In this document: positions 39,301 through 45,300 of the stretch, piece by piece
Layout of the letters: the number at the start of each line of letters is the position of its first letter
Position numbering within the stretch: the first letter of the stretch is position 1
NCBI RefSeq assembly: GCF_041248615.1
Contig: NZ_CP158426.1
Origin: Escherichia coli
GTDB taxonomy: Bacteria > Pseudomonadota > Gammaproteobacteria > Enterobacterales > Enterobacteriaceae
Reading direction: 5' to 3' (one strand)
DNA: 64,000 nucleotides
Made by a program: the position numbers

Positions 39301-42300
39301 GATCCCTTATCGCGGCGGATAATCGCTTTTGAAGCCATTGTGCAAAAAAATGAAGATAGCCCATCAGCTATAGCGGTTGGGCAGCGTAAAGACGGGGAAA
39401 TCTACAAAGCGGATCTCAAAAGTAAGGCGCTTGCATTCGCGATGGCACACGCACTTGAGCTCGGTGATAAAATGATTTCAATCAATCTATTACCTATGAC
39501 CCTGGTTAACGAACCTGACGCAGTCTCTTTTTTACTTGATGAAATAAAGGCCAATGCTCTGGTGCCTGAACAAATCATCGTTGAATTTACTGAAAGTGAA
39601 GTCATATCTCGGTTTGATGAGTTTGCAGAAGCGATTAAATCGCTTAAGGCTGCCGGTATCAGTGTAGCAATTGATCATTTTGGCGCAGGTTTTGCCGGTT
39701 TGTTACTCCTGTCACGCTTCCAGCCTGACAGAATTAAAATCAGTCAGGAATTGATTACCAATGTTCATAAAAGCGGGCCACGGCAGGCAATTATTCAAGC
39801 GATCATAAAATGCTGTACATCACTTGAAATTCAAGTCAGTGCTATGGGCGTGGCAACACCAGAAGAGTGGATGTGGCTTGAATCCGCAGGAATTGAGATG
39901 TTTCAGGGAGATCTGTTTGCGAAAGCTAAATTGAATGGTATCCCTTCCATAGCGTGGCCAGAGAAAAAATAATTTTCAGCACATTCTTTCACATGATTTC
40001 AGTAAATCATCGTGAAAATGAATACGTTATGTTTAAATTTAATCCACATTAAAAATAATGTTTCATCCAATTTAGCTGAAATCTTATTTATACTTTGTAC
40101 AATTTTAGCGTATATTGTACAAAGTATTATTGGGTCGTGTACAGGCGACGGAGATTTGTGACCGCAAGGAGGAATTGTGGCTTATTACAGCATTGGTGAT
40201 GTTGCTGAACGTTGCGGGATTAATCCTGTCACTCTCCGGGCCTGGCAACGCCGCTACGGTTTGTTAAAACCACAGCGCAGTGAAGGCGGACACCGACTCT
40301 TTGATGAAGAAGACATACAACGCATCGAAGAGATCAAGCGTTGGATAAGTAATGGCGTCCCTGTAGGCAAAGTTAAAGCATTACTGGAAACCACCAGCCA
40401 GGATACGGAAGATGACTGGAGCCGCCTGCAAGAAGAGATGATGTCAATTCTTCGTATGGCTAATCCTGCCAAACTACGCGCGAGAATTATTTCACTGGGT
40501 CGAGAGTACCCAGTAGATCAATTGATTAATCATGTTTACCTTCCTGTTCGCCAGCGTCTCGTGCTTGATCACAACACCTCCCGCATTATGAGCAGTATGT
40601 TTGACGGCGCATTAATTGAATACGCAGCAGCCTCGCTTTTCGAAATGCGCCGTAAGCCCGGTAAAGAAGCCATTCTGATGGCGTGGAATGTTGAAGAGAG
40701 AGCACGATTGTGGCTGGAAGCATGGCGTTTATCATTGTCAGGATGGCACATTTCTGTTCTTGCTGATCCCATTGAATCGCCGCGCCCGGAACTGTTCCCG
40801 ACGCAAACATTGATTGTCTGGACAGGCATGGCACCAACGAGAAGGCAAAACGAACTTTTACAACACTGGGGTGAGCAAGGTTATAAAGTCATCTTTCATG
40901 CCCCCTAATTTCACCTTTATCCCGCCCCTTAGACAGAATCTTATAATCTGAACCCACAACAGCGTTTGCACCGGAGCTGGTCCGTTGCAAAATGCTCACC
41001 GGGAGAATTCAGGTAATCCCCCTTTCACACTTTGTACATATCACAGCCAAAGGACAGACCAGATTGAAGTGGTAAAACCGATCGTGCACACTACGCAGTC
41101 TCACAACTAACAAGAGGTTATTATCCTGATGGATCAGGTTGTTGTTTTTCAAAAGATGTTTGAGCAAGTGAGAAAAGAGCAAAACTTCTCCTGGTTTTAT
41201 TCAGAATTAAAACATCACCGTATTGCACATTACATTTATTATCTGGCTACGGATAACATCAGAATTATTACTCACGATGACACGGTTTTGTTATTAAGAG
41301 GAACCAGGAACCTGTTAAAAGTTAGTACGACCAAGAACCCTGCTAAAATAAAAGAGGCCGCATTGCTTCATATTTGCGGAAAATCAACATTTCGGGAATA
41401 CTGTTCAACACTGGCAGGCGCGGGCGTTTTCCGGTGGGTTACTGATGTTAATCATAACAAACGCAGTTACTACGCCATTGATAATACGCTTTTATATATT
41501 GAAGATGTAGAAAACAATAAACCATTAATCTAGCTAAAGTTGGAAGCTTAAGAAATGCTTCATAATTCAGTAAGGCATTAGCATAATGGAAATAAAAGTG
41601 CAGAGACTATCCCTATGGATGATATATACTATCTTTTTATTGCCACCCATAAATAATCACCAGGCCAATACTATCAAATTGATATTTGAAATGTGATTAC
41701 TTGACTTTCTATAAGTTATTTTATAACGGTTAACAAATTTATAAAACCAACGGGCGTGCCATACGCCCGTTTCAATACTTAACGCACATGTGTTTTGGTT
41801 TAGTCATCATCCGGTTATATGTATTTTAGCCAGGAATGGGTTAAACCATTCCTATATAACTAAAAAATTGAAACCTTATTCTCATGTCATGCTTATATTC
41901 GTCATTATCGTTATATAAAAAGGCCAACCATAATGTTTAGCAAATTGGCACAAAGTAGTATAAAGGCTATGTTTTAATTACAGGATGTTCAGTCATTTGA
42001 ATGTATAACATTTTAGCTAAACAAATCTAAAACGAAGTGAATAATTTAATGTTTTCACTAAATCTCATTTTGTTTAATATCTATTGAGATTTCTTGCTTT
42101 AAATTTTGTTTTATATAAACAATGGTTTTAATTTTTGATTAATTTGTTTTTTGGGGAGTAATATACACATATGCAAAGTCAAGAAATGAACATCCAAATG
42201 AACTATATTAAGCACCGTGGGATAAGACATAACAAATGAAGTGGATAGTAATTGACACGATAATTCAACCTACATGCGGCATATCTTTTTCAGCCATATG

Positions 42301-45300
42301 GGGTGATATGAAAATGATCATCTGGTATCAATCTACTATATTTCTCCCTCCTGGCAGTATATTTAAACCGGTTAAATCTGGTATTATCTTTAAGGATAAA
42401 GAATACCCTATTACTATTTATAATATCGCACCATTCAACAAGGATTTATGGATTTTACTCAAAAGCAGTCAAGAGTGTCCTCCAGGAGAAAGCGAAATAA
42501 CAAATAAATGTTTACATAATAGTTGTATTATAAAAATATGCCCATATGGACTCAAGTAATGGGCTTCATATAAATATGCTCGACATGCTATTAATAATAT
42601 CCACATAAATAAAACAACGGGCGTGTTATACGCCCGTTTCATTATTTAACACATGTAGAGATTACATGTTCTTGATGATCGCATCACCAAACTCGCTACA
42701 TTTCAGCAATTTAGCGCCTTCCATCAGACGTTCGAAGTCATAGGTTACGGTCTTGGCGTTGATTGCGCCTTCCATACCTTTAACAATCAGGTCTGCGGCT
42801 TCAGTCCAGCCCATATGGCGCAGCAGTATATAAAAATTATGTATTCAACTCGCTGATATTTAATCATAAATATTATTTTCTTGTCTTTGTATTAGCCAAA
42901 ATCAACTTTATTCAACCGTTTGATTTCATTGACGTTCGTTTTTATTTTGGGGAAAGATTTTCTCTACCATTTATATCAAAATTACAAGTCTACATTTTAT
43001 TAACATCTCAATACATGTGTGGCCTTGCAAGCCATTGCGAGGCCTTATGTGTCTCAGTTTTGTCCCGCCTTGTATTACGACTTGCATAGCCAATGAAGAT
43101 AAACGTGACGACAAACAAAGCAGCTGTCTTCTTTTCTTTCACACTTTCCCCACTCAGCAGCATGCATACCTTCTACTATAACTGTAGTGAATGTCTATTA
43201 TGAGCGAACTGCGGACATCGTGGAGACAACATGCTGCTGGGTGCGGATATCCCATGGCACGTCATATCGCTCGCCGTATTACTTGTTATTTTTTTGAAAC
43301 GAGAAGTTGATACAATTCCTTCAGGGATAAGGCTAATAACTCATTCTTCCTGATGAGATCTTTATCAGCGTCTATACCCTCTGCGCATGATTCATTTAAA
43401 TAGTTCAGTGTTTCCTGATCATCATCCAAGCATTCATAGCTGCCTGAATAAAATTCATCGCAACTTGCTTTGTTATTTTTGTCAATGTAACCAATGCATT
43501 GAATCACGCCTTTAACAACTTTAGCAGCAGAAAAAACAAAGTAACTGCAGTCATTTATATAGCGTTCAATATCAAAAATCATATAAAAATAGTGCATAGA
43601 GTGTTTTTCAATTTCAAACTCACTTGAAATCATAGCTATTTCACATTCAAGGTCTTTCAGACCATCTAACATTATGGAAAGTTTACATTGTTTTTCTTGC
43701 ACAGTTTCATACTTAAATGACTCTCTCCCCTTTGCCCTGACATTTATTCTTTCTTCAATTGCATAAATATAAGCAGGATATACACGCGACCACACTTGGT
43801 TTATTTTTAGGATTAACCGGCCTCTTTTCAGCCTTTCTTTTGTAGCTATAAATTCTGCATATAGCGCAGCATCCTCTTCGCACCATACATCAACTTTTCG
43901 TTTATAACCCAACTTTAATTCTTTCCCTACGCATTCAGGAAACAAAGGATCAAAGTCCTTTAAGTATTCAAACTCACTTAGATAGAATCCTGTCTCATAA
44001 CGATTAAATAATTTCCTAAACTCTTTCCCACTTAAGGTTTTCATTGTATCAATCACTCTGTTTTCATAAAAGCAAAGTCAACAAGATAAAACAATAAAAA
44101 CTCTTACACAACCAGCTGATGTTTTTAAAATAGAGGATAATATAAGACAAGCATAACCTCGTTCACTTCAATGCTACTCCTATCGTTCTTTTGCGTCACA
44201 GAGCGCCTGCCGGACAACTGCATCATAGACCAAACGGAACTGCTTCCGTCGATTAATCAGATGGCAGCGCATAAACACGCTCAACAACCCGTTTGACTGC
44301 TTCAATTTTAAGCTCTTCGGAATAACGCTTACCGTGTAAGTCTCCCTGCAAAACGAGCTATCAACTTTTAAGGAGTCTCTGGCCCCCCTGCTTCCGCTCC
44401 TGGCACACAGCAGCCCTAGAGACAGTGGAGTAAAGTCATGGAGGCTCGGTGGGGAGAGGTGCAAATCCTCCCATACAAAAAATACGAAAATCAGTAACGG
44501 CTAGAAATCATTCAATACATGCACTCTCGAAATTGCATCAGCCAACCGCAAAACGTTATTTCAAAGCCTACTAGCTGCCTTACTTTTTTCCTCAATAACG
44601 CGTCGCCAGCCGGAAACAACCTAATCCCTGTTTTGGGCCTCAAAACCGCTAATGATAATCATTTTCATTTTGTATAGGTTGTGCTATAAAACATAGCCGT
44701 TGCTATGTTTGTTCTAATTTTGCTCACTATAGGTACTAAATTATGCACTCGATAAAAAAAGTAACCATGCTCTTGGGGGGCCTCGCACTCACCTGCTCGA
44801 TCGCATTTCAGGCAAGTGCAACTGAAAAATTCAAGGTCATTACAACATTTACCATCATCGCGGATATGGCCAAAAACGTGGCGGGAGATGCTGCAGAAGT
44901 CTCATCCATAACCAAGCCTGGTGCAGAAATTCATGAGTATCAGCCTACCCCTGGCGATATTAAACGTGCGCAGGGGGCACAACTGATTCTCGCCAATGGT
45001 ATGAATCTGGAATTGTGGTTCCAACGCTTTTACCAGCATCTCAATGGGGTTCCAGAAGTAATTGTCTCTTCGGGTGTGACGCCTGTAGGGATCACCGAAG
45101 GACCCTATGAGGGCAAACCTAACCCCCATGCATGGATGTCGCCAGATAATGCTCTGATTTACGTCGATAATATTCGTGATGCGTTGATAAAATACGATCC
45201 GGCAAATGCACAAACCTACCAACGCAATGCCGATACTTATAAAGCCAAGATTACCCAAACCCTTGCCCCCCTGCGTAAGCAGATTACGGAACTCCCTGAG

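What the first reader, a model, noticed from the sequence alone, without database searches (positions are those of the whole stretch)
41740..42660. Two copies of an icd-terminator-like hairpin bracket iraM
'aacgggcgtgccatacgcccgtttcaatacttaacgcacatgtg' (about 41748-41795) and 'aacgggcgtgttatacgcccgtttcattatttaacacatgtag' (about 42612-42658, directly after the icdC stop) are roughly 85% identical and flank the AT-rich iraM gene. This looks like a footprint of repeated integration or excision at the icd site, and suggests iraM was itself acquired as a small islet at an old att relic.
Basis: seen in the sequence. Interest (0 to 1): 0.4.

Follow-up and report, generated by a model that had tools for sequence, protein, structure and literature searches.

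The report
Duplicated icd terminator brackets iraM islet
Two copies of the transcription terminator of the isocitrate dehydrogenase gene mark the exact edges of an 867-base piece of foreign DNA that carries the stress regulator gene iraM. It is an ordinary but instructive scar of repeated mobile-element integration at one E. coli hot spot.

Summary
A 43-nt direct repeat, 86% identical and about 51 nt long with one gap, lies at 41741-41791 and 42609-42656, spaced 867 bp.

- **Not dispersed:** E. coli genomes hold 1-4 copies, so it is not REP-like.
- **Right copy:** it is the authentic icd terminator. Its stem is invariant across Escherichia and Citrobacter. icd-integrating elements also carry it next to their substitute icd 3' end.
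- **Left copy:** it is a displaced copy with four fixed differences and stem-weakening variants.
- **Islet:** the repeats delimit a presence/absence polymorphism of exactly 867 bp (ymgK-iraM plus a PhoP-box-like motif). About 3,830-3,870 of 5,426 genomes have it. 1,036 genomes have one hairpin and no iraM, including the known B2 strains ATCC 11775 and Nissle 1917.
- **iraM is outside e14:** this contradicts a published statement. Its 60-71% homologues are morons of Stx/lambdoid phages.
- **Left flank:** it resembles the arm that follows the terminator in e14-family elements.

Best model: serial integrations at icd, each bringing its own terminator. iraM would be leftover cargo of one of them. 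The repeat is not the integrase core, no integrase remains, and the direction of the event (gain versus loss in B2) is unresolved. The case is ordinary in kind and new in detail.

The parts
41741..41791 (.). Left copy (hpL) of the icd terminator module: A-tract ATAAAAC(C), stem-loop 41749-41771, then a 20-nt spacer ending in CACATGT.
   Evidence: It carries four differences from the standard type in every iraM+ genome. Common haplotypes have stem-weakening variants.
42609..42656 (.). Right copy (hpR): the working icd terminator module, stem-loop 42616-42638. It is shared by the convergent genes iraM (+) and icdC/icd (-).
   Evidence: The stem is perfect in 7 relatives' loci. It is also perfect in the icd-proximal copy of 42 of 43 IMG/VR loci; L084 has one change that still pairs. 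Fold is -21.3 kcal/mol, z = -4.8, followed by GUUUUAUUUA on the icd strand.
41772..42638 (.). The 867-bp insertion/deletion unit: one repeat copy plus about 816 bp of unique AT-rich DNA. The register within the repeat is arbitrary.
   Evidence: It is absent as one block in L001 and 1,036 genomes. Mean pairwise diversity among iraM+ haplotypes is 4.7%.
42236..42559 (+). iraM, the anti-adaptor of RssB.
   Evidence: ORF. RefSeq annotation of the identical record. Homologues.
41933..41977 (+). ymgK, a small ORF inside the islet upstream of iraM.
   Evidence: RefSeq annotation transferred from NZ_LT599825.1.
42071..42087 (+). PhoP-box-like direct repeat TGTTTAATATCTATTGA, about 150 nt upstream of the iraM start codon, inside the islet.
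   Evidence: It is the only exact match in the window to a relaxed consensus. Functional assignment is an inference from the known PhoP control of iraM.
42662..42829 (-). icdC, the displaced original 3' end of icd.
42815..42830 (.). Junction where icd homology ends and prophage DNA begins. This is the region of the real integrase crossover.
   Evidence: Comparison with the intact icd.
41694..41748 (.). Flank left of hpL, a degenerate homologue of the arm that follows the terminator in e14-family elements (TTATCAAAA-type motifs).
   Evidence: (3 of 1000 shuffles).
41129..41696 (+). ycgX (DUF1398, 41129-41533) and ymgL (41586-41696), the genes outside the islet on the left.
42830..64000 (.). Lambdoid prophage (sitABCD, iss) integrated in icd. 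It continues beyond the window to int and a third terminator copy, at record NZ_LT599825.1 about 3138071-3138093.

Best explanation
**What it is.** The repeat is the icd terminator module: the complement of the U-tract, a 9-10 bp G+C-rich stem-loop, and the roughly 20-nt spacer that normally separates the hairpin from the icd stop codon.

**The two copies.** The right copy is the functional terminator. It ends icd transcription on the minus strand and closes iraM on the plus strand. The left copy is an older copy of the same module that was pushed outward and is now decaying.

**Origin (inferred).** Elements that integrate into icd carry their own icd 3' end plus terminator, so each integration leaves the resident terminator stranded on the far side. 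An earlier such element carried ymgK-iraM as cargo next to its terminator. It integrated, and a deletion then removed the rest of the element and the stranded icd fragment. That left terminator, iraM, terminator.

**Consequences.** The result is a self-contained 867-bp islet holding iraM with its upstream region and a PhoP-box-like motif. It segregates in E. coli as a clean presence/absence polymorphism.

**Shown:** the identity and conservation of the right copy, the exact indel, the element-borne copies, and the decay of the left copy.
**Inferred:** the former element, the deletion, and the direction of the polymorphism.
For: 1. **The right copy is the native icd terminator.** The same stem with the GTTAT loop follows the icd stop in E. 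albertii, E. whittamii, Escherichia sp. E1V33 and three Citrobacter species.
2. **Integrating elements carry the module.** In this genome's lambdoid prophage it lies about 70 nt after int and next to the functional icd. The same phage-type flank appears in E. albertii and in six IMG/VR loci. The only hairpin in the O157:H7 genome examined also lies between a prophage int and icd. e14 in K-12 carries a diverged version, AACGGGAGCGTAACGCTCCCGTT.
3. **e14-family elements keep cargo next to the terminator.** Examples are ymfD/ymfE/lit in e14, and Gabija or DarTG in Citrobacter islands whose integrase is 97% identical to IntE. iraM occupies the same slot.
4. **The flank left of hpL resembles the e14-family arm.** The flank left of hpR does not.
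5. **The indel is exact.** 1,036 genomes have the uninterrupted single-hairpin junction. About 3,830-3,870 have iraM with two hairpins.
6. **The left copy is under relaxed constraint.** Stem-breaking variants lower its stability from about -14 to between -7 and -9 kcal/mol in common haplotypes, while the hpR stem stays fully paired.
7. **iraM is foreign-type cargo.** Its region is 25-35% G+C. Homologues at 60-71% identity are morons of Stx/lambdoid phages. It was not detected next to icd in the other Escherichia and Citrobacter loci. Source names in its protein clusters are E. coli or Shigella only.
Against: - No trace of icd coding sequence remains right of hpL. The model therefore needs a deletion ending within about 5 nt of the old stop codon.
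- The 53 nt between iraM and hpR show no integrase arm-type repeats like those in the two extant element types.
- Known phage iraM homologues sit in the Q-to-lysis region, not next to the attachment site. Their flanks share no DNA similarity with the islet.
- No intermediate form turned up in 5,426 genomes: neither a larger element between the copies nor an hpL closer to the standard type.
- The four fixed hpL differences could equally be differences already carried by an incoming copy.
Confidence: 0.5

Rival explanations
1. Direct Campbell-type insertion. A small circular DNA carrying iraM and its own roughly 50-bp copy of the terminator recombined with the resident terminator, either by homology or through an unknown hairpin-directed recombinase. 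On this view hpL is a hybrid: resident left arm and flank joined to an incoming loop, right arm and spacer.
For: All differences between hpL and the standard type lie to the right of an 18-nt identical block, ATAAAAC plus the left arm. This is what a crossover in that block would give. Both islet edges coincide with the edges of the homologous module, so no extra deletions are needed. Element-borne terminator copies can be strongly diverged, as in e14. The four hpL differences are fixed in all iraM+ genomes, consistent with their presence at insertion.
Against: No recombinase, and no donor carrying an hpL-type hairpin, was found. The scan of species-representative genomes, which allowed any loop, found only the standard GTTAT-loop type (ATAAC on the opposite strand) next to icd. 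No free or differently located copy of the islet turned up. The iraM homologues in phages share only the coding sequence. Fifty bases at 86-92% identity is a poor substrate for RecA.
Confidence: 0.25
2. The two-copy, iraM-containing state is ancestral for E. coli. The single-hairpin genomes, which include the known B2 strains ATCC 11775 and Nissle 1917, lost the islet by recombination between the two repeats. This rival concerns the direction of the polymorphism only and is compatible with either origin model.
For: The islet is old in E. coli: mean pairwise divergence is 4.7%, against 2.4% in the left flank. hpL carries four fixed changes, which suggests a long time since duplication. The iraM-less left-flank haplotypes form one cluster, so a single event suffices. 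One separate iraM-less haplotype, L003, carries IS200C at the junction. A related arrangement with IS200C beside both hairpins exists, showing that loss routes are available.
Against: iraM was not detected next to icd in any of the sampled loci from other Escherichia and Citrobacter species. No single-hairpin genome has the chimeric junction (hpL loop with hpR tail) that half of such deletions should produce; the best match is 96.8%. Some analyses, from general knowledge, place B2 as an early branch, which would allow primary absence.
Confidence: 0.45
3. The hairpin is a member of a dispersed repeat family (REP/BIME-like) or the end of a hairpin-bounded transposable unit (IS200/IS605-type element, integron cassette). 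On this view its two copies near iraM say nothing specific about icd.
For: It is a G+C-rich palindrome in an intergenic region. The two copies are in direct orientation, as are the subterminal hairpins of IS200/IS605 elements.
Against: There are only 1-4 copies per E. coli genome. The copies inspected all lie in the icd / icd-prophage region, but the extra places were not inspected genome by genome. The empty site keeps one hairpin, whereas an IS200/IS605-type element would take both. There is no transposase or integron integrase, no attC core sites, and no Rfam family above threshold.
Confidence: 0.03

Closest known systems
attL/attR duplication made by prophages that integrate into the 3' end of a gene and carry a replacement 3' end (e14 and phage-21-type lambdoid phages at icd; many tRNA-targeting elements)
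   Same: Direct repeats of host-derived sequence flank inserted foreign DNA. A single copy remains at the empty site. Extant icd-integrating elements carry the very same terminator module.
   Different: The repeat covers only the non-coding terminator module, not the 165-bp icd segment or the crossover core. The bracketed DNA is 0.87 kb with no integrase or excisionase. The copies are 86% identical rather than sharing a long identical core.
Degraded ('grounded') prophage remnants that leave single cargo genes (morons) in the chromosome
   Same: The region is AT-rich. iraM is a gene with its own upstream region and terminator, and its homologues are phage morons. The neighbour ycgX belongs to DUF1398, whose E. 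coli paralogues I recall, untested here, as prophage genes.
   Different: No other phage gene remains, and the relic is delimited by terminator copies rather than by recognisable att cores.
Mobile elements that target intrinsic terminators or extragenic hairpins (bacterial class C group II introns, IS200-type elements, REP-targeting IS); recalled from general knowledge, not tested here
   Same: IS200C has inserted at the same position on the T-tract side of hpL, of hpR and of the single hairpin. The hairpin is therefore a reusable target.
   Different: The iraM islet shows no ribozyme, transposase or terminal structures of such elements.
Bidirectional Rho-independent terminators between convergent genes
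   Same: hpR lies between convergent iraM and icd. It has a perfect G+C-rich stem and T/A tracts on both sides.
   Different: This describes what the hairpin does, not why it is duplicated. The U-tract is good only in the icd direction.

Membership tests
Rho-independent (intrinsic) terminator | G+C-rich stem-loop | tested here: met
   Both copies have 9-10 bp stems with 6 G-C pairs, about -14 kcal/mol for the 23-nt hairpin. In context hpR gives z = -4.8 to -5.7 and hpL z = -1.4 to -2.6.
Rho-independent (intrinsic) terminator | U-rich tract directly 3' of the stem on the transcribed strand | tested here: met
   On the minus (icd) strand, hpR is followed by GUUUUAUUUA and hpL by GGUUUUAUAA. On the plus strand only hpR passes the scan, and hpL is followed by UCAAUACUUAAC.
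Rho-independent (intrinsic) terminator | Conserved position just after a stop codon | tested here: met
   This holds for hpR, which lies 19-24 nt after the icd stop in seven other Escherichia/Citrobacter loci. hpL lies 52 nt after the ymgL stop, with no gene on its good (minus) side.
Rho-independent (intrinsic) terminator | Measured transcript 3' ends at the hairpin | not testable with these tools
   Needs Term-seq or 3' RACE.
Integrative-element att repeats (attL/attR) | Direct repeats at both ends of the inserted DNA, with a single copy at the empty site in related genomes | tested here: met
Integrative-element att repeats (attL/attR) | Integrase or excisionase encoded by the element | tested here: not met
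   The only ORFs of 40 aa or more between the copies are iraM, one unannotated 42-aa ORF on the plus strand and one unannotated 57-aa ORF antisense to the iraM 3' end. RefSeq annotates only ymgK and iraM there.
Integrative-element att repeats (attL/attR) | The repeat contains the crossover core of a known integrase | tested here: not met
   The core used by the icd-targeting integrases lies at the 5' edge of the 165-bp icd segment, near 42815-42830. The hairpin repeat lies outside it.
Integrative-element att repeats (attL/attR) | Excision or integration observed | not testable with these tools
   Needs PCR for circles and empty sites, or an integration assay.
REP/BIME dispersed palindromes | Tens to hundreds of copies at unrelated intergenic sites | tested here: not met
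   Median 2, maximum 4 places per genome in 5,416 genomes. Two copies in the window.
IS200/IS605-type element or derived palindrome-bounded unit | Both subterminal hairpins belong to the element, and the empty site lacks them | tested here: not met
   The empty site keeps one complete hairpin.
e14 prophage (published placement of iraM) | The gene lies between the e14 attachment junctions and is absent when e14 is absent | tested here: not met
   In MG1655, e14 ends at 1211412, icdC spans 1211413-1211577 and iraM spans 1211680-1212003. iraM also lies directly next to an intact icd, with no prophage, in many genomes (rows H8-H28). The statement being tested is in PMC4045071.
IraM anti-adaptor family | Sequence membership of the ORF between the repeats | tested here: met
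   It is 93% identical to proteins that the sources name IraM. RefSeq names it IraM. The Pfam-A scan run here gave no hit at E <= 0.01, although the precomputed table lists PF11183.

The most novel reading that the evidence does not exclude
The icd terminator hairpin is itself a recombination target, a hairpin-type attachment site. It would be used by an integrase-less 0.87-kb iraM cassette, mobilised in trans or through single-stranded hairpin recombination, and by IS200C. Intrinsic terminators would then serve as docking sites for mini-cassettes, somewhat as attC sites do in integrons.
Probability: 0.08. Interest if true: 0.6.

Novelty: new member of a known kind. Interest (0 to 1): 0.33.

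Why it matters
- **It corrects the record on iraM.** iraM is not part of e14. It is a separate, older 867-bp islet that about 70% of sequenced E. coli carry and that at least 19% lack, including the known B2 strains checked. This matters for comparing RpoS control and the Mg-starvation response between laboratory and extraintestinal pathogenic strains.
- **It shows layering at one attachment region.** The same short non-coding module occurs three times in this genome, once per layer: flank-ycgX, then the iraM islet, then the current prophage. Elements that bring their own terminator can leave terminator-bounded cargo behind.
- **It provides simple markers.** The two repeat junctions can be used to type the locus. 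The direct repeats also offer a possible route for precise iraM loss.

Tried and rejected
- **Hidden icdC or phage spacer beside hpL:** the right flank of hpL showed no significant similarity to the icd 3' coding end (492 of 500 shuffles scored as well) or to the int-hairpin spacer of the prophage (37 of 500). An apparent GTTTTGG...CATCATC resemblance was chance.
- **REP-like element:** rejected on copy number.
- **IS200/IS605-type or integron-type cassette:** rejected because the empty site keeps a hairpin and no recombinase or core sites are present.
- **Known RNA family:** nothing above gathering score. The best hit was tpke11 at 24.7 bits against a threshold of 43.
- **Donor with an hpL-type hairpin:** the scan of species-representative genomes, with any loop allowed, found only the standard type next to icd. 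That scan did not return the E. coli representative, so it may be incomplete.
- **Intermediate hpL forms and chimeric deletion junctions:** none among 5,426 genomes.
- **Citrobacter loci as unmodified outgroups:** abandoned. Their flank and integrase proved to be e14-family.
- **Phage iraM homologues:** only the coding sequence is similar, with no hairpin and no shared flanks.
- **Literature:** the first search (iraM/icd/horizontal) returned irrelevant papers. No supplementary tables of PMC4045071 are held, so I could not tabulate the distribution of iraM by phylogroup.
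Full report
**Context.** The window is identical to E. coli NRZ14408 (NZ_LT599825.1). The local gene order on the plus strand is:
- bluR
- ycgX (41129-41533)
- ymgL (41586-41696)
- left hairpin
- ymgK (41933-41977)
- iraM (42236-42559)
- right hairpin
- icdC on the minus strand (42662-42829)
- from about 42830, a lambdoid prophage carrying sitABCD and iss

The prophage runs past the window end to xis and int, followed by the functional icd.

**Observation check.** The two copies are real.
- They are 43 nt ungapped at 86% identity, spaced 867 bp.
- With one gap the similarity covers about 51 nt. It starts at ATAAAAC just outside the stem and ends at CACATGT, about 5 nt short of where the icd stop codon lies beside the right copy.
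- The core occurs only twice in the window, and shuffled sequence gives none.
- Each copy folds into a 9-10 bp stem of about -14 kcal/mol.

**Not a dispersed repeat.** A 65-nt query around the left copy finds a median of 2 and at most 4 places per genome in 5,416 E. coli genomes. A scan of one genome per bacterial species for the stem with any loop returned 42 loci. Only seven of them lie next to icd, all in Escherichia or Citrobacter, and all have the GTTAT loop. The rest are unrelated chance hairpins.

**The right copy is the icd terminator.**
- The same hairpin and an almost identical spacer follow the icd stop in E. albertii, E. whittamii, Escherichia sp. E1V33, C. braakii, C. amalonaticus and Citrobacter sp. 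Cu233.
- Its stem is perfect in the icd-proximal copy of 42 of 43 IMG/VR loci. The exception, L084, has one change that still pairs.
- On the icd strand it is followed by GUUUUAUUUA.
- Because it lies between convergent genes, it also closes iraM.

**The repeats delimit an indel.**
- Some E. coli genomes match the region in two pieces spanning 1,334 bp instead of 2,201 bp, which is 867 bp less.
- In strain MS20653 the sequence reads ymgL, flank, one hairpin of the standard type, then icdC.
- A 201-nt query across this junction is matched uninterrupted in 1,036 of 5,426 genomes, including ATCC 11775. A related 94-nt junction query also matches Nissle 1917 full-length. From general knowledge both are phylogroup B2.
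- About 3,830-3,870 genomes have iraM with two hairpins.
- The O157:H7 genomes listed match the region only over icd, so they lack the ycgX-iraM stretch. In the one examined, the only hairpin lies between a prophage int and icd.
- CFT073 is reported to lack iraM and to carry the paralogue iraL elsewhere (PMC4045071).

**iraM is not part of e14.** The same paper states that iraM is on e14. In MG1655 the e14 feature ends at 1211412, icdC follows, and iraM lies beyond it. Many genomes have iraM directly beside an intact icd with no prophage.

**Integrating elements carry their own terminator.**
- In this genome the prophage int stop is followed by three CCCCAAAAC-type repeats, ATAAAAC, the standard hairpin, the spacer and the substitute icd 3' end. 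This is a third copy, outside the window.
- e14 in K-12 carries a diverged hairpin with compensatory stem changes, followed by about 105 nt that are roughly 90% identical to the flank seen in the Citrobacter loci.
- Those Citrobacter loci are e14-family islands. Their integrase is 97% identical to IntE. Their cargo, Gabija in one and DarTG in the other, lies between the terminator and the integrase. The same slot in e14 holds ymfD, ymfE and lit.
- The integrase of the window genome's prophage is 60% identical to IntE.

**The left copy sits in terminator context on its outer side only.**
- The 55 nt to its left, which also flank the single hairpin in iraM-less genomes, align with the e14-family arm. 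Only 3 of 1000 shuffles score as well, and the TTATCAAAA-type motifs are retained.
- The DNA left of the right copy shows no such similarity.
- To its right, homology stops before any icd coding sequence.
- The outer neighbour ycgX is a DUF1398 protein. I recall that family from lambdoid prophages, but did not test this here.
- The locus therefore looks layered: an old e14-type arm with ymgL-ycgX, then the iraM islet, then the strain-specific prophage.

**State of the left copy.**
- All iraM+ genomes share four differences from the standard type: loop TT to CC, one T to C, and one inserted G. All four lie to the right of an 18-nt identical block. No genome has an intermediate form, the best match to a synthetic ancestral-type hpL being 93.7%.
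- Individual haplotypes add stem changes that lower stability to between -7 and -9 kcal/mol. Two of these are C-to-T changes that still pair as G.U on the plus strand.
- The copy is therefore under relaxed constraint. At most it is kept weakly as a plus-strand hairpin after ycgX-ymgL.

**Age and direction.**
- The islet is highly polymorphic, with mean pairwise divergence of 4.7% against 2.4% in the 580-nt left flank. It is therefore not a recent arrival.
- iraM-less left-flank haplotypes form one cluster, so one event explains them. The tools cannot root the tree.
- No single-hairpin genome has the chimeric junction expected from some repeat-mediated deletions.
- A separate iraM-less haplotype, L003, has IS200C at the junction. 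L002 has IS200C at the same position beside both hairpins.

**Nature of the cargo.**
- The islet is 25-35% G+C. It contains the only exact PhoP-box-like match in the window, about 150 nt upstream of iraM.
- IraM relatives at 60-67% protein identity lie in lambdoid prophages. Some sit between stxAB and nanS-p, others between Q and the lysis genes. Further copies lie in an IS21/PerC context.
- Only the coding sequence is similar.
- Source names in the IraM clusters are E. coli and Shigella only.

**Interpretation.**
- The favoured model (about 0.5) is that a former icd-integrating element brought the right copy and iraM. The left copy is then the stranded resident terminator, and a deletion removed the stranded icd fragment and the rest of the element.
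- The main rival (about 0.25) is direct recombination of a small iraM-bearing DNA with the terminator. This explains the clean edges and the one-sided distribution of the differences, but no recombinase or donor is known.
The repeat is not the integrase core and holds no icd coding sequence.
- In kind this is a familiar repeat-flanked islet. The specific architecture, and the correction of iraM's placement, appear to be new.

Noticed in passing
L002 2340-3060 and 3920-4640; L003 2346-3053; L104 about 5399-5857: IS200C (708 bp) is inserted at the same position, immediately before AAAAACAACGGG on the T-tract side of the terminator. This occurs beside the left copy, the right copy and the single hairpin in different strains. 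At least three independent insertions suggest that IS200C targets this terminator. Two flanking copies also offer a route to delete iraM.
   Followed up: partly
L002 4638-4662: In one strain the right hairpin has its 5-nt loop inverted (GCGTATAACACGC instead of GCGTGTTATACGC) with the stem unchanged. This looks like a palindrome flip by template switching.
   Followed up: no
L089 3206-3541; L095 2122-2457; L099 6003-6338; L100 5003-5338; L092 4001-4321: IraM homologues at 60-67% protein identity are morons of Stx and other lambdoid phages. They lie antisense, between stxAB or Q and nanS-p or the lysis genes. They also occur in an IS21/GGDEF/PerC context. One of these lineages is probably the published paralogue IraL.
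   Followed up: partly
L033 52-5100; L007 3933-10159; L101 470-640: Citrobacter carries e14-family islands at icd, with an integrase 97% identical to IntE. Anti-phage cargo (Gabija GajA/GajB in one, DarT/DarG in the other) sits in the slot between the element-borne icd terminator and the integrase. This is where e14 has ymfD, ymfE and lit.
   Followed up: partly
L097 10010-10060 (outside the window); L101 545-590: Triple short repeats lie between the element-borne terminator and the rest of the element. They are GTTTTGGGGAA x3 in the lambdoid prophage and TTATCAAAA x3 in e14. They are candidate arm-type integrase binding sites.
   Followed up: no
window 44743-49820: The prophage next to icdC carries sitABCD with sitD split by an IS1414 (IS256-like) insertion. 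Further on it carries iss and an ompC-like porin gene between Q and the lysis genes.
   Followed up: no
L028 (contig DYWT01000019.1): A metagenome-assembled genome labelled Sporosarcina psychrophila holds an enterobacterial icd 3' end, the hairpin and a Citrobacter-type flank. This is most likely a contaminating contig.
   Followed up: no
L098 12980-14048: phoPQ lies only about 5 kb from icd (gene order icd, rluE, nudJ, mnmA, hflD, purB, phoP). The PhoP-controlled iraM islet has therefore landed close to its regulator's genes. This may be coincidence.
   Followed up: no
window 42639-42661 and homologous spacers in L004-L037: The 20-24 nt between the icd stop and the hairpin (TTAACACATGT...) are almost invariant from Citrobacter to Escherichia and in phage-borne copies. 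That is more conserved than expected for a mere spacer.
   Followed up: no
result list: The scan of species-representative genomes did not return the E. coli representative. Yet ATCC 11775 carries an exact match to the pattern. Absence from that scan is therefore not proof of absence.
   Followed up: no
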